Source: a virus
Direction: 5' to 3' (one strand)
Length of the DNA stretch: 64,000 bases
Virus record (IMG/VR): IMGVR_UViG_3300027859_000006
Span: 44,152 to 108,151 of that record
Within the stretch, counting starts at the first letter, position 1, and every line of letters begins with the position of its first letter. Positions 9,749 through 48,439 of this stretch are shown here, piece by piece. Both the position numbers and the translations under genes were made by a program. The notes under the pieces were generated by a model that saw nothing but the letters and a program-made list of their open reading frames with translations, did not search any database and was not told the DNA's origin.

Positions 9749-11410
9749 TTATGCAACAACTTTTTGCGGGTTCAAGGTGATTAATTGTACCTGTCCGTTG
9801 CTGTATTCCATCATGTGACCGTGATCCCACGATGACGCGCCCCCACGGTTATAGCCTTGATTTAGTCGAGCGGTAACGCCTGTAGTAAACACTGAGCCTA
9901 TTATGCATGGGCTGTGGGTGTGTCCTGTTATTAGGTTTAAATTCCAGTCTTTGAACTGATTTGGGTTTCCTGCGCTCCCGTTTGCGCCCTTGTGCCCATG
10001 CTGCGAATAATCGAATTTAAGCGGCTTAAAAGGCTTATCCATTCGACCAAAATGCACATTATTGGGTAACTCTGGCAATGTGGTTAGATCGGCATTTTCT
10101 AAGGCGATCTGTAACGCGTTTTTCTCATGTTCACCTTGGTCTAAGGTATCGCACACTAACCAATTTAACAGATAGTATAATTTGCTGTTATGGCTGTCCT
10201 GCTTGGGATTAACGCTACTATCATCCAGCCAATTGTCGAGCGCTGAGTTGTGATTGCTCTCGGTGATCGATACGGTATCAACTATGGTAGATAATTCGGT
10301 TAACTGTACGATTACCTGTTTAAGGTCGTTCTCAACGCTTTCATGTCGATTTGCGTACAAGTGCTTCCCACTGTTACGGTTATGGTGAGACCTTGTGCTA
10401 AAGTGTAAAATATCGTCAACTGCGATCACACTTGGTTTAACTTTGTCAAGAAAGTCCATTGTCTTTTGCCAATATGCATGATCGTAAACTTCACAATGTA
10501 GATCACCAAGTTTTCCGGCTTCTGGTAATTTACCGTAATAATATTCGAGTTCAGGTAACACCACATTCAATGATCCGTCATCGCCTTGAAAAACGTTGGT
10601 AACGTTATAACCACCGTCACACTTGTAAACGATCATGGCTGCCTGTTTATGGTCTTTTTCCGCTTCTGCTCCTGCGCGACTTCTGGTGTAGTTGTACGCT
10701 GTGCAGCTACCAGTAGTGACAGCCTTTGTAATTGATTGATCGTTAAGTCGTGGTAGCGTTTTGTACTGCTGCTTGGGGCTTGCTACTACCGTGATTAGTT
10801 CACCACTATTCAGCTTGGCCGCTGCATTAATAGGCAATTTGTTAGTTGGTAAAACTGCTGCGGTGCTAGCGATCAAACAGGCGTTTTTCTCGAATAGCCA
10901 ACAATCGTCAAGCTGTAAAAACGGCGTGACCTTAGGGTTAAATACTTCGGCTTCGGTCTCTACCGCTGGACTAAAGGCGTTTTTGTTATAGTAAACGGGC
11001 ATTACCATTAAACGCGCATCTAGTAGGCTTGCTCTCATATCATCGATCATAGCAAGAAGTTGATCCTCAAAGCCTGTGGTAATAGTGTTATTTTGTGCGC
11101 TTGTAATTACGAAAACATCACCGTCTAGAACTGGCAATAAATCGCGCTGTGATTGAGTGTAACCAACTTGTGTATCTGCCGCTGGTTTAGTCGCTGCACT
11201 TGGCTTTTTCGCTTTCTCAGCCTCTCTCAGGCTCTTTAGATGCTCAACAACTAGCGGCATTAAAATAGCTGCATCGCCTTTAAGATCAAGGTTATGGATC
11301 GCATCCTCAACAACTTCCAAGCGTGAATCACGTTTACGCTTACCTAAAAGGTTATTTTCCTCGCACTCTGCGCAAAGTAGATCAAAGTTTTTATCGTTTA
11401 AATGTTTCAT
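9749..11410 (-). CDS. A1: A1 pre-early protein (host DNA degradation / second-step transfer)
   Basis: 553 aa; ITSAQNNT, GDLH, ESNH, HGHKG.NG, GHTHSP, GYN.G.SSW. Confidence 0.92.
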   Translation of the reverse strand: MKHLNDKNFDLLCAECEENNLLGKRKRDSRLEVVEDAIHNLDLKGDAAILMPLVVEHLKSLREAEKAKKPSAATKPAADTQVGYTQSQRDLLPVLDGDVFVITSAQNNTITTGFEDQLLAMIDDMRASLLDARLMVMPVYYNKNAFSPAVETEAEVFNPKVTPFLQLDDCWLFEKNACLIASTAAVLPTNKLPINAAAKLNSGELITVVASPKQQYKTLPRLNDQSITKAVTTGSCTAYNYTRSRAGAEAEKDHKQAAMIVYKCDGGYNVTNVFQGDDGSLNVVLPELEYYYGKLPEAGKLGDLHCEVYDHAYWQKTMDFLDKVKPSVIAVDDILHFSTRSHHNRNSGKHLYANRHESVENDLKQVIVQLTELSTIVDTVSITESNHNSALDNWLDDSSVNPKQDSHNSKLYYLLNWLVCDTLDQGEHEKNALQIALENADLTTLPELPNNVHFGRMDKPFKPLKFDYSQHGHKGANGSAGNPNQFKDWNLNLITGHTHSPCIIGSVFTTGVTARLNQGYNRGGASSWDHGHMMEYSNGQVQLITLNPQKVVA

Positions 11411-24618: not shown

Positions 24619-25079
24619 TACTGTAATTTATATACTATAACGTTGTGGTCGATAAAAATTTCCTCTAATAGAGTAATAACTATTTCCCACTTACCACCAG
24701 CTCTATCACTACCCATTAAATATGGTACAGCAATAGTAGAGCCTTTTGGAGCGTACCTTGAAGCTTCTAACATGGCCTCTACTAGAGCCATGTAACTTAA
24801 CTGCCTACCGAAGTTATCGTTCATTAAGCTAGATTTTCCACCAAAGTAGTCTTGACCGTATAAGTTTAAAACTCTACCGTCTGTAGACATACTTCCTAGT
24901 ATCTTATCGTTAGCATTGTAGTGTACAGTATCCGCTTCGTATGCACTGGGAATCCTTTCCCTGATTTCCTTAGCAATGCCGGAGCCAAAGTTGTTTCGAC
25001 AATTGCAGCAGTGCATTAAAAACTCTACTTCACCCTCTAGTAACGCTGAAACTGCATTTCCTAGTTTAAAATCAATCAT
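24618..25079 (-). CDS. Macrodomain (ADP-ribose binding / hydrolase) protein
   Basis: GN....HCCNC...FGSGIA..I; NLYGQ; P..G..RAGG.W. Confidence 0.88.
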   Translation of the reverse strand: MIDFKLGNAVSALLEGEVEFLMHCCNCRNNFGSGIAKEIRERIPSAYEADTVHYNANDKILGSMSTDGRVLNLYGQDYFGGKSSLMNDNFGRQLSYMALVEAMLEASRYAPKGSTIAVPYLMGSDRAGGKWEIVITLLEEIFIDHNVIVYKLQ

Positions 25080-26611
25080 AGCATCGCCCTCATACGCACG
25101 TCATTCCACGACGTTTTGCGAACCATTTTACCATTCTTAAAGATAACTTCTAAGTCACCACCATCATCGTTAGGTTGCTGGTCGTACAGCTCACCATCAA
25201 TAACTTTTAGGTAGCCCTTAGCTGATTTCTTAGTACCATTATCAGTTTTAGGGTCTTTGAACAGTTCTACATGCTCACCACCACGAGTACCTGCCGTAGC
25301 CTTAAACGCAATTCCTAGAGTGTCTCTAGTATTGTACTGGTATGTGTAAGAACCGATACCGAATACAACGTTGCATGATGCAAAACCTTTAGCAGCTAGT
25401 CGAGCCATAATAGCTTCACAACGGTGAAGTGTGATTGAGTCACCATAAATAAGACCTACTGAGCTATTAAGAATTTTGAAGCCTTCTTCGGTTTCGTCAC
25501 CTCCAAAGATATCATACAAAACTTCAACCGCTCCTTTAATCTCATGCTCCGCTAGCTCTTTACCAGTTTTACGGCAGTAGTAAACACCTCCAGATTCACG
25601 ATACTCACTAGGCTTATAACCAGTAAGAATCTTGACAGGGTCTCCACTATCTGGACGGAACACTGTACGTCCTGGCACTAGTACGTTACCGTCTTCATCT
25701 ACAATGTCTTCTCTGCTTTCGATAAGTTCTTTAAGCAGAACTGTGTAAGAAGTAAGAACTTTCCAGAAGTCCCAAGTGTCTGACACGATACTAACAATAC
25801 CAGCAGGGTATAATTTAAGCAAGCGCTCAAACGTATCTATTTCTTTATCTTTAGAGCCCATACACATTACAGAGTGTTCTGTAGCTGGTACTGTAACACC
25901 TGTCATTGGGTCTGCATTGTGGAAGTATTTTAGCGCTTGTTTCACTGGCAATGTATCTGTACCGTTGAAATACACCATGTGACCCATTGCTCCAAATACT
26001 GCGTCTTCTACAAAAGATAGTCCACGCATTGAGAAGTCATGGCACTGTAGCTCTGTAGAGATATCAGAGCAACCTGTACGAGCTGCGTATTCATCTACTA
26101 GAATACGGAATTCACGTGCAATTGTAGCATTAGTAATAGGCTTCCAAGTAACCGCTGATAGCAGAGTTTCTAGGTAATTAGTAACCCAGAAAAACTCAGG
26201 TAATGTGTCTTTAATAGTTAAGAACGGCACTTTAATTTTAGCAACAGTACCTTCCGGCAAGGCCTTGATGATAATTGGCAAGTAGCCTAGGTCATGTAGA
26301 GCGTATACGTGATCTAGAGTAATAGCACCTGGTCCTAGAGCATCTTCTACAACTTCTTTATACTGAGGACATACATCGTCTCGGTCTTGCTTGAAGAAGT
26401 TTTCATCGAATAGCTCTTTAATAAAATATAATACTGTTGCTTCCATACCTACGGCAACGTATTTACCATCGTGCTTAGGCCATGTTTGTTGGAATATTTT
26501 ATTGCTTCGAGGAGTACCATTAGAATATACAACTTCTGTATCTTCAGGGTACTGGCTTCTGTGGTCTAGTTTATAACCATCAGTAATTAGTAAAGGGTTT
26601 AATTTAAACAT
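25076..26611 (-). CDS. Nicotinamide phosphoribosyltransferase-family enzyme (NARP1 Namat-like)
   Basis: TDGYK..H..QYP, HDF..RG, GTDT, PATEHSVM, SIVSDTWD, RPDSGDP, YGDSIT, TRDT, KKSAKG. Confidence 0.93.
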   Translation of the reverse strand: MFKLNPLLITDGYKLDHRSQYPEDTEVVYSNGTPRSNKIFQQTWPKHDGKYVAVGMEATVLYFIKELFDENFFKQDRDDVCPQYKEVVEDALGPGAITLDHVYALHDLGYLPIIIKALPEGTVAKIKVPFLTIKDTLPEFFWVTNYLETLLSAVTWKPITNATIAREFRILVDEYAARTGCSDISTELQCHDFSMRGLSFVEDAVFGAMGHMVYFNGTDTLPVKQALKYFHNADPMTGVTVPATEHSVMCMGSKDKEIDTFERLLKLYPAGIVSIVSDTWDFWKVLTSYTVLLKELIESREDIVDEDGNVLVPGRTVFRPDSGDPVKILTGYKPSEYRESGGVYYCRKTGKELAEHEIKGAVEVLYDIFGGDETEEGFKILNSSVGLIYGDSITLHRCEAIMARLAAKGFASCNVVFGIGSYTYQYNTRDTLGIAFKATAGTRGGEHVELFKDPKTDNGTKKSAKGYLKVIDGELYDQQPNDDGGDLEVIFKNGKMVRKTSWNDVRMRAML

Positions 26612-34741: not shown

Positions 34742-36124
34742 TTATAAGTAGTCGTACTTAGGTATGCACAGCGCGGATTTGACCATGTCTAGAGGTGTTA
34801 CTACTTCCCCAGACAATACTGTCTTCATAACCGCAGCTGAGAAGCCCGATACTAAAACAGTACCATTCTGTCCAGCTCTAACTGGTACGTTATCACGTCT
34901 GCTAGCAATGTTCCAGAACACTAATTTAGGAGCAGTAAAACCTGAGGCTTCAAAGTCTCTAATAGTTTTCTCAGATACAGGGCTTGAACCGCAACGGTCA
35001 AATTCCATATCAGACAGTACGATTAACGCATCTGGCAAATCTTCATCAGTCAGTCCGTTAGCAACGGCTCTATCCAGGATAGTTTGCATAGCGCGATTAA
35101 TATCCGTATTCATGCCCCAGTGCGCTCTACTTAGGTTACGAAGACGAGTTTCTAAGGTATCACCACAAAGTTCTTGCATTCTAGGACGTTCAGAGAACGT
35201 TAAGAACTGGTCTTTGAACACTCCTTTGTTTCGCTCGGCTAGGTAAATACCAAGAGACATTGCTACTTGCATAGTAGTGAATTTAGTATTCCCAGCTGCA
35301 ACACACATAGACGCTGAAACGTCTATCATAGGCAAAAAGCTGCCTTCGCCCACGTAATCTGGCAAACCTTTCCATTGAGCTTCTCGAAGCTGCCCTGAAC
35401 TATTTGCTACAATCTCATAAGGATATAGCACGCTAGAGTTAACCGTATCCTTGCCCTTTTCAAGGGCGGATAGATACTCTTCGTATCTTTCACCGTCATT
35501 GCGAGCAAACGCTTTGCGATAAAGTAACTGAGCACGAGAAGGCAACTTACCGTACTCAATTTGATCCCACTCACGATTACACATCTGAGTCTCAACTACG
35601 TTAGTAGTTTCAACTAACAGCTTGCGCAAAGTTTTTGGCGGAACGCCAAGGTGACGGCGCACCTCTCCGAAGATTGTACCTTTACGAGGCATCCACTTAG
35701 CTGCTAGAGCATTTTTCTCAACCGCAATAGCGCGTAGCCATACGGTGATAGCGTGTGCCTTAATGTCTCCACCAAGTTCAATTACTGGGATTAGGTCGTC
35801 GAAGCGACCAATCTCAGGGATTTTTGATACAATGGCTTTACCTGTTTCTAGGTCGACCAGTTTAAGGATTTGTGTAATCCATTGGCGGAAGTGTTTACGT
35901 TCACCGTAACCACCACGAGGGTCACGTGTATACAGAGCTAAGCGAATAGCCAAGTCTGGGTTTTCTTTAAAAGCCTGTAAGAATTCACCTACTAGGTTAG
36001 TTCCACGGCTAGAACCTGCACGACCGAATAAGTCTACTAGGAATGAACCTGATGTAGAGTTTGTTACTGCTCTATTCTCTGTAAATGAGTTAGCGTGCGT
36101 CATTGCGTTAAATAGTTTGTTCAT
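34742..36124 (-). CDS. DUF2828 / TROVE(Ro60)-like protein with C-terminal vWA domain
   Basis: TEN.A, RD.RGG.GER, GR.DDL, AKW.PR, VE..MC..W, LYPYEI, MIDAS DVSAS, SDMEFD, FWN, SGFS. Confidence 0.88.
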   Translation of the reverse strand: MNKLFNAMTHANSFTENRAVTNSTSGSFLVDLFGRAGSSRGTNLVGEFLQAFKENPDLAIRLALYTRDPRGGYGERKHFRQWITQILKLVDLETGKAIVSKIPEIGRFDDLIPVIELGGDIKAHAITVWLRAIAVEKNALAAKWMPRKGTIFGEVRRHLGVPPKTLRKLLVETTNVVETQMCNREWDQIEYGKLPSRAQLLYRKAFARNDGERYEEYLSALEKGKDTVNSSVLYPYEIVANSSGQLREAQWKGLPDYVGEGSFLPMIDVSASMCVAAGNTKFTTMQVAMSLGIYLAERNKGVFKDQFLTFSERPRMQELCGDTLETRLRNLSRAHWGMNTDINRAMQTILDRAVANGLTDEDLPDALIVLSDMEFDRCGSSPVSEKTIRDFEASGFTAPKLVFWNIASRRDNVPVRAGQNGTVLVSGFSAAVMKTVLSGEVVTPLDMVKSALCIPKYDYL

Positions 36125-38983: not shown

Positions 38984-39232
38984 TTATAAAACTAACCGTG
39001 CTGATATTGTTGTTACGTCTTGGTCGTCGATTAGCTCACCGTCTTCATCTAAATTGTCCGAATCTGTGTACTCGCCGTCACCTACCCCCATCAAGTCAAA
39101 CTGAGAAGTAAAGTCTTCTAAGAATTTCTCTTCTGACCAGTCTTCTGCGTGGCAGTCTGGAACATCGTCAGGTACTTCGTAAGTCTCTGTATACCCACAA
39201 TAATCAACACAATATATTTCAACAATTTTCAT
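38984..39232 (-). CDS. Highly acidic protein
   Basis: After promoter cassette; D/E rich. Confidence 0.7.
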   Translation of the reverse strand: MKIVEIYCVDYCGYTETYEVPDDVPDCHAEDWSEEKFLEDFTSQFDLMGVGDGEYTDSDNLDEDGELIDDQDVTTISARLVL

Positions 39233-39304
39233 TCACTTTCCTCATTTCTTAATATGTGTATATTATACGTTAAATTAACTTGTTTAGCAAATGATTTAAT
39301 AATT

Positions 39305-39432
39305 TGGAGCAGAGAGAAGGAATCGAACCTCCGCCAATCTTTTATGAGAAGAAAGCTAAATAGTTGCTGCAAGTATTCTTCCAAACAGAATACCTTGTTT
39401 GCTGTATTATGCTACCACTACACCATCTCTGC
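39305..39432 (-). ncRNA. tRNA-like RNA with anticodon arm replaced by ACAGCAA/stem module
   Basis: Acceptor GCAGAGA/TCTCTGC, D arm, GGAGG-TTCGATT-CCTTC, CCA; ~70-nt insert. Confidence 0.75.
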
Positions 39433-39534
39433 ATGAGTACCCTAGGAAGTGCACTCCCTAAGTTTAGTATTATAGACCTGACCGGCTCGGCTCGGATTAT
39501 TATAGTGGGGTCAATCACTCTACGTTTTATAAGG

Positions 39535-39732
39535 CTAACGTATTACCTCAGAATTTATAAACTTCTCTGAGCTAAGGTCTATAGCCCTAACTTCGAAATC
39601 CCAATATAGTGGGCAGTTAAGCTCTTCTTCTGCTACGTTTTGTGCTTTTTCGTAAGCTTCTGAAATAGACAGGTCATCGTCAACCTCTACCTGTACTGTT
39701 TTAGTAATCTTTACTTCTACTTCAACAAACAT
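39535..39732 (-). CDS. Acidic small protein
   Basis: After promoter cassette. Confidence 0.65.
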   Translation of the reverse strand: MFVEVEVKITKTVQVEVDDDLSISEAYEKAQNVAEEELNCPLYWDFEVRAIDLSSEKFINSEVIR

Positions 39733-39954
39733 TCGTTTTCCTCATTTCTTAATATGTGTATATTATACGCTGAAATGGGTTATTTTGCAAATGATTTAAT
39801 AATTAATTTGAATGTCATACCAGGTTCCGAACCAGTTAAAATAAAACCTATAAATTATACTCTTTTTGTAATACAGTACTTTAGGTATAATTGTAGTGGA
39901 TATATTTAGTCTATAAGTGCTTGGTCTTTTACACATTTTTACCGCTGAAATCAT

Positions 39955-43730: not shown

Positions 43731-43806
43731 TGGCAAGGGTGGAGGGAATCGAACCCGTCTCTATGCGAAGGTTTGGAATCTTGCTGCATACCATATGCTC
43801 ACCCCT
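43731..43806 (-). tRNA. tRNA-Trp(CCA), weak anticodon stem
   Basis: Loop TTCCAAA; T arm; CCA. Confidence 0.75.
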
Positions 43807-45205: not shown

Positions 45206-45295
45206 TGGTGGATAGTAGAGGAGTCGAACCTCGTGCCCTGAGGGTACTGGTTTACAGCCAGCTGACACACCACTGCGTCCTTATTGATACTATCC
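45206..45295 (-). tRNA. tRNA-Tyr(GUA), atypical D arm
   Basis: GCTGG-CTGTAAA-CCAGT. Confidence 0.82.
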
Positions 45296-46406: not shown

Positions 46407-46530
46407 CAGAGTAGTTTGATTTTTAAGGACTTTTAACTGTCCAGTCTAATAACACTTTAACGGTGAGACCAATACACCGCCGTACTTTTACAGTACCTAT
46501 ACATTAGATTTTGTTTGCTGTAACTACTCT
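46407..46530 (-). ncRNA. Stem+ACAGCAA RNA copy A
   Basis: AGAGTAGT-TACAGCAAA...ACTACTCT-G. Confidence 0.7.
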
Positions 46531-46627: not shown

Positions 46628-46683
46628 CAGACTGCTTTTTTATTTTCACCCATTGAAATTTTAAAAGTTGCTGTTAGCAGTCT
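46628..46683 (-). ncRNA. Stem+ACAGCAA RNA copy B
   Basis: AGACTGCT-AACAGCAAC...AGCAGTCT-G. Confidence 0.7.
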
Positions 46684-47349: not shown

Positions 47350-47425
47350 TGGTGCAGAGAGTGGGTAACGATCCCAACCTCTCAGGTGCTTCAAACCTGC
47401 GCTAATCCATCTCAGCTATCTCTGC
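47350..47425 (-). tRNA. tRNA-Phe(GAA)
   Basis: CAGGT-TTGAAGC-ACCTG. Confidence 0.87.
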
Positions 47426-47435
47426 AATAAATAAT

Positions 47436-47498
47436 CAGGCTGCATTATATTGGTTTTTGATTAGCAGTCAAATAATACAATGTTGCTGTTAGCAGCCT
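47436..47498 (-). ncRNA. Stem+ACAGCAA RNA copy C with Ser(GCU) anticodon stem-loop
   Basis: AGGCTGC-TAACAGCAAC...TTTGA-CTGCTAA-TCAAA...GCAGCCT-G. Confidence 0.7.
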
Positions 47499-47666: not shown

Positions 47667-47744
47667 CTGGTTACTATTGTTGACGCTTCTTAAACGTCCG
47701 TTTCTTGATGTTGGTAAGAAAATAGTATTTGCTGTAAGTAACCA
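47667..47744 (-). ncRNA. Stem+ACAGCAA RNA copy D
   Basis: TGGTTACT-TACAGCAAA...AGTAACCA-G. Confidence 0.7.
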
Positions 47745-47990: not shown

Positions 47991-48067
47991 TGGTTCAGCT
48001 GACGGGAATCGAACCCGCTTACGCAACACTGCGTCTAGGGTGAAAACCTAGTGTCGACATCGGCTGA
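47991..48067 (-). tRNA. tRNA-Glu(UUC)-like, D-armless with long variable arm
   Basis: CTAGG-TTTTCAC-CCTAG; 9-nt D replacement; CCA. Confidence 0.65.
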
Positions 48068-48290: not shown

Positions 48291-48439
48291 TGGCACAGGT
48301 AGAGGGACTCGAACCCCAAGGCTAGTATTGATAGATAGAGAAATTATCTCTGTCGTTAATCCCATTTAATTCTAAGAAAATACTTTTTTATTAGCTTACC
48401 TTTAGAATCAATATAGTCCACATAAGTAGCTACACCTGT
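48291..48439 (-). ncRNA. tRNA-like RNA with branched ~90-nt domain in place of anticodon arm
   Basis: ACAGGTG/TACCTGT acceptor; GG-TTCGAGT-CC T arm; G-CCA. Confidence 0.65.

What the first reader, a model, noticed from the sequence alone, without database searches (positions are those of the whole stretch)
39305..39432. tRNA scaffold whose anticodon arm is replaced by a circularly permuted ACAGCAA module
Seen: perfect acceptor stem (GCAGAGA/UCUCUGC, the same as this phage's tRNA-Phe), D arm, T arm and encoded CCA. The anticodon arm is replaced by a ~70-nt insert: UACAGCAAA ... GUAUUCU-G-loop-AGAAUAC-UUGCAGCAAC. This is the same stem+CAGCAA handle with its strands swapped and capped by a loop. 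Established: in bacterial YrlA Y RNAs the Ro-binding stem takes the place of the anticodon arm of a tRNA mimic. Inference: this is a Y-RNA-like tRNA chimera that directly links the motif to tRNA mimicry.
Basis: partly seen in the sequence, partly recalled or inferred. Interest (0 to 1): 0.85.

Follow-up and report, generated by a model that had tools for sequence, protein, structure and literature searches.

The report
tRNA-shaped partner RNA of Ro60-like protein
This 128-base gene in a T5-like marine phage is a complete tRNA(CAU) body with an extra hairpin-plus-CAGCAA "handle" inside its anticodon stem, and is most likely a non-decoding partner RNA of the phage's Ro60-like ring protein, one of a widespread class I found in no paper or RNA catalogue.

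Summary
The gene is real at 39305-39432 on the minus strand. Rfam tRNA scores it 40.5 bits.

The anticodon arm is not replaced. A 54-nt insert sits between tRNA positions 28 and 29, in the 5' strand of an intact anticodon stem-loop (CAU). Removing it in silico gives a canonical 74-nt tRNA-Met.

The insert holds a 9-bp hairpin followed by GCAGCAAC. This matches the stem-plus-CAGCAA handle of small RNAs that flank DUF2828 genes in 75 distant phage loci (8-fold enrichment, P=6e-25), but with its strands joined by a loop.

The DUF2828 protein is predicted to fold like Ro60.

An IMG/VR pattern scan found about 36 distinct tRNAs with the same insert at the same position. A covariance model built only from those scores the window gene at 72.9 bits (E=5e-19). 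DUF2828 is present in 22 of 27 chimera-bearing virus records and in 0 of 12 controls.

Cronobacter phage S13 has two such genes, annotated tRNA-Ser and tRNA-OTHER.

The anticodon arm is the least conserved part, and the tRNA bodies do not track their anticodons. This favours a Y-RNA-like adaptor over a spliced tRNA, but splicing is not excluded.

This scan has noted the same class on at least 19 other genomes. I found no publication describing it.

The parts
39305..39432 (-). Whole 128-nt tRNA-handle chimera. RNA nt 1 = 39432; the encoded CCA is at 39305-39307.
   Evidence: Rfam tRNA 40.5 bits. Family model R1 gives 72.9 bits, E=5e-19, full length. Sequence.
39426..39432 (-). Acceptor 5' strand GCAGAGA. 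It pairs with 39309-39315 (UCUCUGC). The discriminator U is at 39308.
   Evidence: Identical to the acceptor stem of tRNA-Phe at 47350-47425.
39409..39423 (-). D arm GUGU-AGUGGUA-GCAU.
   Evidence: The same D-arm type (GUGU-AAUGGUA-GCAC) occurs in many IMG/VR chimeras.
39352..39405 (-). 54-nt insert between tRNA positions 28 and 29 (RNA nt 28-81).
   Evidence: In-silico removal gives tRNA-Met(cat), 74 nt. The insertion point is the same in the family alignment.
39399..39405 (-). First ACAGCAA (RNA nt 28-34), within an A-rich linker. Lineage-specific; not a family feature.
   Evidence: It has no family-like 5' flank. Other chimeras carry UAUAAAAGG-type linkers here.
39371..39395 (-). Capped handle hairpin AGGUAUUCU-GUUUGGA-AGAAUACUU (RNA nt 38-62).
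   Evidence: The only changes in relatives L003/L006 fall in its loop. The handle helix covaries in the family.
39364..39370 (-). GCAGCAA handle motif (RNA nt 63-69).
   Evidence: Weight-matrix score 19.4, rank 3 in the window. Aligned to the CAGCAA of model R1.
39337..39351 (-). Lower anticodon stem CUU, loop CUCAUAA (anticodon CAU at 39344-39346) and 3' strand AAGAU.
39316..39332 (-). T arm GGAGG-UUCGAUU-CCUUC.
34742..36124 (-). DUF2828/DUF7788 protein (460 aa), the proposed protein partner. Predicted Ro60-like TROVE+vWA ring with an intact MIDAS motif DxSxS (D268, S270, S272).
   Evidence: Pfam. PHROG 850 'RNA-binding protein'. AlphaFold2 pLDDT 91.5. The top 12 Foldseek matches are all Ro60/Rsr/TROVE, E 2.5e-8 to 7e-6. 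Invariant residues.
46628..46683 (-). Regular (non-permuted) short handle RNA AGACUGCU-A-ACAGCAAC...AGCAGUCU, just 3' of a tRNA-Met.
   Evidence: Sub-threshold hit to Rfam Dicty_Class_I_RNA, 22.5 bits.
47436..47498 (-). Regular handle RNA GGCUGC-UA-ACAGCAAC...GCAGCC.
46407..46530 (-). Longer regular handle RNA, AGAGUAGUU-ACAGCAAAC...AACUACUCU.
47667..47744 (-). Regular handle RNA UGGUUACU-U-ACAGCAAA...AGUAACCA.
39762..39790 (-). Sigma-70-type promoter that probably drives the small ORF 39535-39732 and then the chimera.
   Evidence: No terminator or consensus promoter lies between it and the chimera.
39262..39290 (-). Next promoter, starting 15 nt after the CCA end.

Best explanation
The gene makes a stable RNA of about 128 nt that is cut out of its transcript like a tRNA: RNase P at G1, and the encoded CCA at the 3' end. 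It folds as a tRNA L-shape, and the 54-nt insert is kept as an extra arm that leaves the 5' strand of the anticodon stem between positions 28 and 29.

That arm is the docking handle (a helix followed by single-stranded GCAGCAAC) for the phage's Ro60-like DUF2828-vWA ring protein. The tRNA body supplies tRNA likeness: the elbow, the acceptor-CCA end and perhaps the anticodon loop. Through it the particle could engage a tRNA-binding partner or the tRNA processing and repair machinery.

The RNA would then be a Y-RNA analogue built inside out relative to YrlA, and not a decoding tRNA.

Shown here: the anatomy, membership of a conserved family, the homology of the handle, the Ro60-like predicted fold, and the co-occurrence with DUF2828.

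Inferred, not shown: binding to the protein, retention of the insert, the lack of decoding, and the downstream partner.
For: 1. The handle belongs to an RNA family tied to DUF2828. RCAGCAA is enriched 8-fold on the sense strand within 250 nt of DUF2828 genes in 75 distinct loci: 43 sites against 5.2 expected, P=6e-25, with only 2 on the antisense strand. The closing stem covaries.

2. The chimera's second motif and its flank score as a family site.

3. Model R1 was built only from IMG/VR chimeras. It hits the window gene at 72.9 bits, against at most 39.6 for normal tRNAs.

4. On 11 family members, 97% of cells pair and 18 of 27 pairs show compensatory changes. These include the split anticodon stem and the handle.

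5. DUF2828 is present in 22 of 27 chimera-bearing virus records (7 of 7 among near-complete ones). It is present in 0 of 12 control records. Fisher P=1.6e-6.

6. The predicted DUF2828 fold matches Ro60/Rsr over its full length.

7. Against a decoding role:
- The phage already has three CAU tRNAs.
- Other phages usually carry a normal isoacceptor as well.
- Only 17 of 36 chimeras keep a fully canonical anticodon arm, and several have none, among them L009, which sits 170 nt upstream of a DUF2828 gene. Acceptor, D and T arms pair in 97-98% of cells, against 81-85% for the anticodon stem.
- Chimera bodies resemble chimera bodies of other phages with different anticodons (0.78-0.88 identity) more than any normal tRNA of their own locus (at most 0.71).

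8. No bulge-helix-bulge or other conserved junction motif was seen.
Against: - No expression, binding or processing data exist.
- Removing the insert gives a flawless tRNA-Met(CAU), and about half of the family keep canonical anticodon loops. Both are also what an intervening sequence would show.
- The compensatory changes that keep the two top anticodon-stem pairs fit either reading.
- The close relatives (L003, L006, L007) are too similar for a selection test. The whole 300-nt non-coding block is conserved, not only the gene.
- One relative (L008, an assembly at 2.9x coverage) has lost the insert and the anticodon loop through a deletion. The gene is therefore dispensable there, or decaying.
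- The family sample was gathered with a pattern that required CAGCAA, a T loop and CCA. The high integrity of those parts is therefore partly ascertainment.
- The gene lies 3.2 kb from the DUF2828 gene, not next to it.
Confidence: 0.6

Rival explanations
1. The insert is an intervening sequence. It is removed after transcription by an unknown endonuclease and ligase, perhaps guided by the DUF2828 protein bound to the handle. The product is a functional tRNA-Met or tRNA-Ile2(CAU).
For: - In-silico excision gives a canonical 74-nt tRNA.
- The insertion point 28|29 is fixed across the family, and the split stem is kept by compensatory changes.
- 17 of 36 members keep canonical anticodon arms with varied anticodons.
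Against: - No splicing motif is present. There is no bulge-helix-bulge, and the insert is far too short for a group I intron. Rfam gives nothing but tRNA.
- The product would be a fourth CAU tRNA.
- Members such as L009 have no anticodon hairpin yet keep the handle and the tRNA core.
- The tRNA bodies do not track their anticodons.
- The anticodon arm is the least conserved helix.
- No bacterial or phage enzyme for such splicing is known (my own knowledge).
Confidence: 0.15
2. It is a working tRNA that keeps the handle as a tag. It would be aminoacylated and used in translation or in another aminoacyl-tRNA pathway, while bound or protected by the Ro60-like protein.
For: - It has a complete cloverleaf, a canonical anticodon loop and an encoded CCA.
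- The handle leaves the stem near the place where the long variable arm of class II tRNAs emerges (inference from tRNA geometry, not tested).
Against: - The backbone of positions 28-30 is contacted by the 30S head in the ribosomal P site (my recollection of published ribosome structures, not tested here). A 54-nt arm there should clash.
- The anticodon is redundant with three other CAU tRNAs.
- Anticodon arms have decayed in many family members.
Confidence: 0.1
3. In this phage lineage the gene is a decaying remnant. A tRNA gene was disrupted by a copy of the handle element, and it looks conserved only because the relatives are recent.
For: - Relative L008 has deleted the insert and the anticodon loop between two CAUAA repeats and shortened the D loop.
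- The high identity in L007 extends into the neighbouring ORF, as expected of a recently shared block.
Against: - All helices and the handle are intact. The only two changes in L003/L006 lie in the hairpin loop.
- The gene is a full-length match to a family kept in very different phages.
- There are 0 and 2 differences in 128 nt, against flanks at about 7-8% divergence (P=1e-4 and 1.5e-3). The conserved block weakens this test.
Confidence: 0.1

Closest known systems
Bacterial and phage Ro60 (Rsr) with YrlA-type Y RNAs (Chen et al. 2014, PMC4201824)
   Same: - A ring protein of Ro60 fold (TROVE plus vWA) is paired with small RNAs that mimic tRNA.
- The protein-binding module leaves the tRNA-like domain at the anticodon-stem position.
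- The genes are clustered with the protein gene.
   Different: - The protein is DUF2828/DUF7788. It is not detectable as TROVE by sequence (Ro60 at E=0.72), only by predicted fold.
- The handle motif is helix plus RCAGCAA, not GNCGAAN0-1G.
- Connectivity is reversed. Here the acceptor end is open with CCA and the handle is capped. In YrlA the acceptor is capped and the Ro-binding stem holds the RNA ends.
- An intact anticodon hairpin is present.
- No Rfam Y RNA or YrlA hit.
Class I RNAs of dictyostelid amoebae (Rfam RF01414; Kjellin et al. 2021, PMC7919456)
   Same: - The handle is nearly the same: a short stem joining the two ends, then CCUUACAGCAA next to the 5' strand, with a 3' end in CUG.
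- The phage's regular handle RNAs give full-length sub-threshold hits of 22.5, 15.3 and 26.7 bits, against a gathering score of 41.5.
   Different: - Class I RNAs are 42-65 nt, eukaryotic, reported as unique to Dictyostelia, and known to bind Rnp1A.
- The chimera is 128 nt. Its handle is capped by a loop and embedded in a tRNA, so it fails the defining 'stem joins 5' and 3' ends' feature.
- Whether a Dictyostelium DUF2828 protein binds Class I RNAs is an untested lead.
tRNA genes with intervening sequences (bacterial group I introns in the anticodon loop; archaeal bulge-helix-bulge introns at non-canonical positions)
   Same: A tRNA gene is interrupted by extra sequence, and removing it restores a canonical cloverleaf.
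   Different: - The insert is 54 nt, with no group I core and no Rfam hit.
- It lies in the stem (28|29), not in the loop.
- It has no bulge-helix-bulge motif.
- It carries a conserved protein-handle motif, and it co-occurs with a Ro60-like gene.
Long 'tRNA' genes annotated in cultured phages: Cronobacter phage S13 NC_028773.1 132703-132823 (tRNA-Ser) and 132833-132945 (tRNA-OTHER); Citrobacter phage Ci1 'tRNA-Pseudo'; Vibrio phage 1.081.O 'tRNA-Asn'
   Same: They show the same architecture and score 88 and 54.6 bits with model R1. They lie about 500 nt downstream of the DUF2828 'RNA-binding protein' gene.
   Different: - They exist only as automatic annotations. I found no study of them.
- Their motif is CAGCAC/CAGCAU.
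- The host phage is T4-like, not T5-like.

Membership tests
tRNA (Rfam RF00005) | Cloverleaf scoring above the curated threshold | tested here: met
   40.5 bits against a gathering score of 29, with 67 nt skipped by a local alignment.
tRNA (Rfam RF00005) | Contiguous 5-bp anticodon stem with a 7-nt loop; standard length of about 72-95 nt | tested here: not met
   The stem is split 2+3 bp by a 54-nt insert, and the RNA is 128 nt. ARAGORN finds it only after in-silico excision.
tRNA (Rfam RF00005) | Aminoacylation and decoding | not testable with these tools
   Needs charging assays and ribosome association.
Phage tRNA-handle chimeras (family defined here, model R1) | Full-length match to a model built from other members | tested here: met
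   72.9 bits, E=5e-19, model positions 1-121. The best normal tRNA scores 39.6.
Phage tRNA-handle chimeras (family defined here, model R1) | Insert between positions 28 and 29, holding a capped hairpin followed within 0-5 nt by CAGCAA | tested here: met
Phage tRNA-handle chimeras (family defined here, model R1) | DUF2828 gene in the same genome | tested here: met
   Gene at 34742-36124, 3.2 kb away. Across the family the figures are 22 of 27 against 0 of 12.
YrlA / Y RNA | Ro60-binding motif GNCGAAN0-1G (metazoan GGUCCGA) in the stem | tested here: not met
   The motif is absent from the sequence. No Y RNA or YrlA hit even at E up to 10. Motif as given in PMC4201824.
YrlA / Y RNA | Encoded with a Ro60 (TROVE) orthologue and bound by it | tested here: inconclusive
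   The neighbouring protein is Ro60-like by predicted fold only. Binding was not tested.
YrlA / Y RNA | tRNA-like domain with T arm, capped acceptor and D arm, and RNA ends in the Ro-binding stem | tested here: not met
   The acceptor is open with CCA, and the handle is capped by a loop.
Dictyostelium Class I RNA (RF01414) | 42-65 nt, with a stem that joins the 5' and 3' ends | tested here: not met
   128 nt, and the handle stem is closed by a 7-nt loop. No RF01414 hit on the chimera.
Dictyostelium Class I RNA (RF01414) | 11-nt motif CCUUACAGCAA next to the 5' stem strand | tested here: met
   ACUUGCAGCAA follows the stem strand, matching 8 of 11 positions. The neighbouring regular handle RNAs hit RF01414 below threshold.
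Group I or archaeal-type tRNA intron | Group I catalytic core, or a bulge-helix-bulge at the junctions | tested here: not met
   54 nt, with no Rfam intron hit. The junctions are A/U-rich and have no conserved pairing across the family.

The most novel reading that the evidence does not exclude
Phages that encode a Ro60-like DUF2828 ring protein repeatedly turn tRNA genes into protein-tagged tRNA mimics, by grafting a Class I-type handle at position 28|29. The resulting particles would present real anticodon loops and CCA ends, for example as decoys or sensors for host tRNA-targeting defences, or as adaptors that bring an RNA-surveillance ring to tRNA enzymes. The same handle in Dictyostelium Class I RNAs would then point to a eukaryotic DUF2828 protein as their missing partner. 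The chimera would be a living intermediate that shows how tRNA-like Y RNAs arise from tRNAs by handle insertion and circular permutation.
Probability: 0.25. Interest if true: 0.9.

Novelty: new variant of a known kind. Interest (0 to 1): 0.78.

Why it matters
- Ro60/Y RNA particles are a classic but poorly understood RNA-surveillance system.
- This gives a second, sequence-unrelated branch of Ro60-fold proteins (DUF2828, in 711 cultured phage records) a candidate RNA partner with a simple, mutable handle.
- It shows that whole tRNAs can carry that handle.
- It explains odd "tRNA-OTHER" and over-long tRNA calls in phage annotations.
- It offers tractable models such as Cronobacter phage S13.
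- It links to the orphan Class I RNAs of Dictyostelium, reported as unique to that group.
- It also bears on how tRNA-mimicking Y RNAs evolve.

Tried and rejected
- **Similarity to cultured phages.** Megablast and blastn of the locus against 50,697 phage records gave no match. Blastn of an IMG/VR chimera also gave none.
- **Exact T-arm/acceptor scan of IMG/VR.** It found only one close relative.
- **Thermodynamic folding alone.** It does not recover the cloverleaf, and z is only -1.67. My constrained-fold energies were not informative, so I did not use them.
- **Selection test on close relatives.** I dropped it as weak, because the whole non-coding block is conserved.
- **Capped handles in 80 IMG/VR DUF2828 loci.** My hairpin script found none. 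The covariance model later found members there, L088 and L106, so that script was too strict.
- **Known RNA families.** Rfam at gathering and at E up to 10 gives only tRNA for the chimera.
- **Intron readings.** Group I and bulge-helix-bulge introns were rejected on size and on the lack of motifs.
- **Protein Atlas.** It added nothing on the eukaryotic range of DUF2828.
- **Avesson 2011 and the Sim 2020 review.** Neither is held in the library. I therefore could not check whether a Class I-binding protein of Dictyostelium is a DUF2828 protein.
- **tblastn of the 919-aa ORF.** It did not place the phage. A PHROG hit to the T5 A1-type DNA transfer protein did.

Full report
**What is there**

On the minus strand, 39432 to 39305 reads as a 128-nt RNA. 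Its parts are:
- acceptor stem GCAGAGA/UCUCUGC, the same seven pairs as this phage's tRNA-Phe;
- U8;
- D arm GUGU-AGUGGUA-GCAU;
- T arm GGAGG-UUCGAUU-CCUUC;
- discriminator U and an encoded CCA.

Rfam's tRNA model scores it 40.5 bits against a gathering score of 29, skipping 67 nt. ARAGORN does not call it.

- RNA nt 82-96 are CUU-CUCAUAA-AAGAU: the lower three pairs, a canonical loop with anticodon CAU, and the complete 3' strand.
- A26-U96 and U27-A95 supply the top two pairs across the insert.
- Removing nt 28-81 (54 nt) gives a 74-nt sequence that ARAGORN calls tRNA-Met(cat).
- The insert therefore sits between tRNA positions 28 and 29.

The insert reads ACAGCAAACA, then a 9-bp hairpin AGGUAUUCU-GUUUGGA-AGAAUACUU, then GCAGCAAC, then a 12-nt U-rich linker.

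**The handle and its protein**

The window holds four small RNAs just 3' of tRNAs. Their design is stem 5' strand, one or two nt, ACAGCAA(A/C), a variable interior, then the stem 3' strand. The window also holds a 460-aa DUF2828/DUF7788 gene at 34742-36124.

I fetched 80 metagenome loci around DUF2828 genes, most of them only 40-48% identical.
- In 75 distinct loci, RCAGCAA occurs 43 times on the sense strand within 250 nt of the gene, against 5.2 expected. P=6e-25, with 2 on the antisense strand.
- The RNAs share the plan (U)UAGGAUGC-YU-ACAGCAA...GCAUCCUG(U), and the closing stem covaries.
- Long forms enclose tRNA-like pieces in several arrangements.
- Rfam holds no family for them at threshold.
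- Three of them, from three searches, give full-length sub-threshold hits to Dictyostelium Class I RNA, RF01414: 22.5, 15.3 and 26.7 bits. The consensus of that family, stem-CUUACAGCAA...CUG, is nearly the same. Class I RNAs are reported as unique to dictyostelids (PMC7919456).

The DUF2828 protein is predicted with pLDDT 91.5. Its first 12 structural matches are all Ro60, Rsr or TROVE, over the full length. The vWA MIDAS residues are invariant. By sequence alone Ro60 is not detectable.

**Circular permutation**

I built a weight matrix from 37 distant DUF2828-flank sites and scanned both strands of the window.
- The top five scores are the four regular handles and the chimera's second motif (19.4 bits). 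The next best site scores 12.4.
- The strand before that motif, AAGAAUACUU, matches the family's 5' strand. One example is UAGAAUGUUU-GCAGCAAC in L009.
- Its partner GGUAUUCUG, with the family's trailing G, lies upstream and is joined to it by a loop.

The ends of a regular handle RNA are thus closed, and the RNA is opened at the tRNA acceptor instead. The first ACAGCAA has no family-like flank and is absent from other chimeras.

**A family of such tRNAs**

- Many are tRNAs of 114-133 nt with an insert at the same 28|29 position. The insert is an A-rich linker, a capped hairpin such as UAUCCU-GUCA-AGGAUA, 3-5 nt, CAGCAA, then an A/U-rich linker.
- On 11 of them, 97% of cells pair. Eighteen of 27 pairs show compensatory changes, including both top anticodon-stem pairs and the handle.
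- A covariance model built from these 11 scores the window gene at 72.9 bits (E=5e-19, full length). The best ordinary tRNA scores 39.6.
- The model finds more members in the DUF2828 loci, among them L049, L106 and L013, and L009 976-1097 only 170 nt upstream of a DUF2828 gene.
- It also finds two tandem genes in Cronobacter phage S13, which RefSeq calls tRNA-Ser (121 nt) and tRNA-OTHER (113 nt).
- Some phages carry two or three chimeras.

DUF2828 is encoded in 22 of 27 chimera-bearing virus records. That includes all 7 that are at least 90% complete. It is encoded in none of 12 control records, where CAGCAA lies inside an ordinary tRNA (Fisher P=1.6e-6).

**Retained arm or intron?**

No data on the RNA itself exist, so this rests on comparison.

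For retention and a non-decoding role:
- The window phage already has three CAU tRNAs.
- A normal isoacceptor usually sits in the same array as a chimera.
- Only 17 of 36 distinct chimeras keep a fully canonical anticodon arm, and several have none.
- Acceptor, D and T helices pair in 97-98% of cells, against 81-85% for the anticodon stem.
- With the insert removed, chimera bodies resemble chimera bodies of other phages that carry different anticodons (0.78-0.88 identity). They resemble no normal tRNA of their own locus beyond 0.71. This is not how isoacceptors behave.
- The junctions carry no conserved splicing motif.

For removal:
- Excision gives a perfect tRNA.
- The insertion site is fixed.
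- The split stem is maintained.

The sample is biased by the search pattern towards intact T arms and CCA ends.

**Relatives of this phage**

- L007 carries an identical copy.
- L003 and L006 differ at two positions, both in the hairpin loop.
- The whole 300-nt non-coding block is equally conserved, and in L007 the identity runs into the next ORF. This says little about selection.
- L008, a 2.9x-coverage contig, has a 60-nt derivative. It lacks the insert and the anticodon loop, through a deletion between two CAUAA repeats.

The chimera has no consensus promoter of its own. It is probably read from the promoter at 39790 through a 65-codon ORF. A further promoter follows the CCA end. The phage is T5-like, by a PHROG hit to an A1-type DNA transfer protein.

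**Verdict**

The Y-RNA-like reading is the best supported, at about 0.6. Splicing, a tagged working tRNA, and local decay remain as rivals.

I found no paper describing these RNAs. Earlier notes of this scan report the same class on at least 19 other genomes, and the Class I link on at least 42. I reached both points before reading those notes.

Noticed in passing
window 43731-43806 (-): A 76-nt tRNA-like gene with a CCA end that ARAGORN and Rfam (at gathering score) both miss. Its D hairpin CAUA-UGG-UAUG is followed directly by CAGCAAG, and the anticodon arm is degenerate. It may be another handle-bearing tRNA mimic.
   Followed up: partly
window 47991-48067, 45206-45295 and 48291-48403 (-): Three more tRNA-like genes with T arms and CCA ends that ARAGORN does not call (77, 90 and 113 nt). 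The 113-nt one is closed by AGGUA...UACCUG, like a handle stem, but has no CAGCAA.
   Followed up: partly
window 39433-39537 (-): The 105-nt spacer upstream of the chimera is as conserved among relatives as the chimera itself. It holds the hairpin UAGGGAG-UGCA-CUUCCUA, which shows a G.U to A-U change in L008. Its function is unknown; it may be a leader or a processing element.
   Followed up: partly
L008 3440-3499: A relative at 92% DUF2828 identity carries a 60-nt deletion derivative of the chimera. The insert, the 5' anticodon strand and the loop were lost between two CAUAA direct repeats, and the D loop is shortened.
   Followed up: yes
L009 868-1160: One promoter (TTGACA-17-TATAGT) is followed by a short handle RNA, a tRNA-handle chimera without an anticodon hairpin, and a second short handle RNA. 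All lie directly upstream of a DUF2828 gene.
   Followed up: yes
L185, L170/L196, L183/L278, L188 (IMG/VR loci): A further topology: the handle's closing stem seems to double as the acceptor stem. CAGCAA and a variable region take the place of the D and anticodon arms, followed by a T arm and CCA.
   Followed up: no
window 39231-39290 and 39738-39791 (-), and other sites: A repeated strong promoter cassette, TTGCxA-17-TATAAT-ATACACATATTAAGAAATGAGGAA, precedes many small ORFs in the tRNA region.
   Followed up: partly
window 9749-11410 (-): A PHROG 1745 DNA transfer protein (T5 A1-like, E=5e-130) marks the phage as T5-like. A nicotinamide phosphoribosyl transferase lies at 25076-26611.
   Followed up: partly
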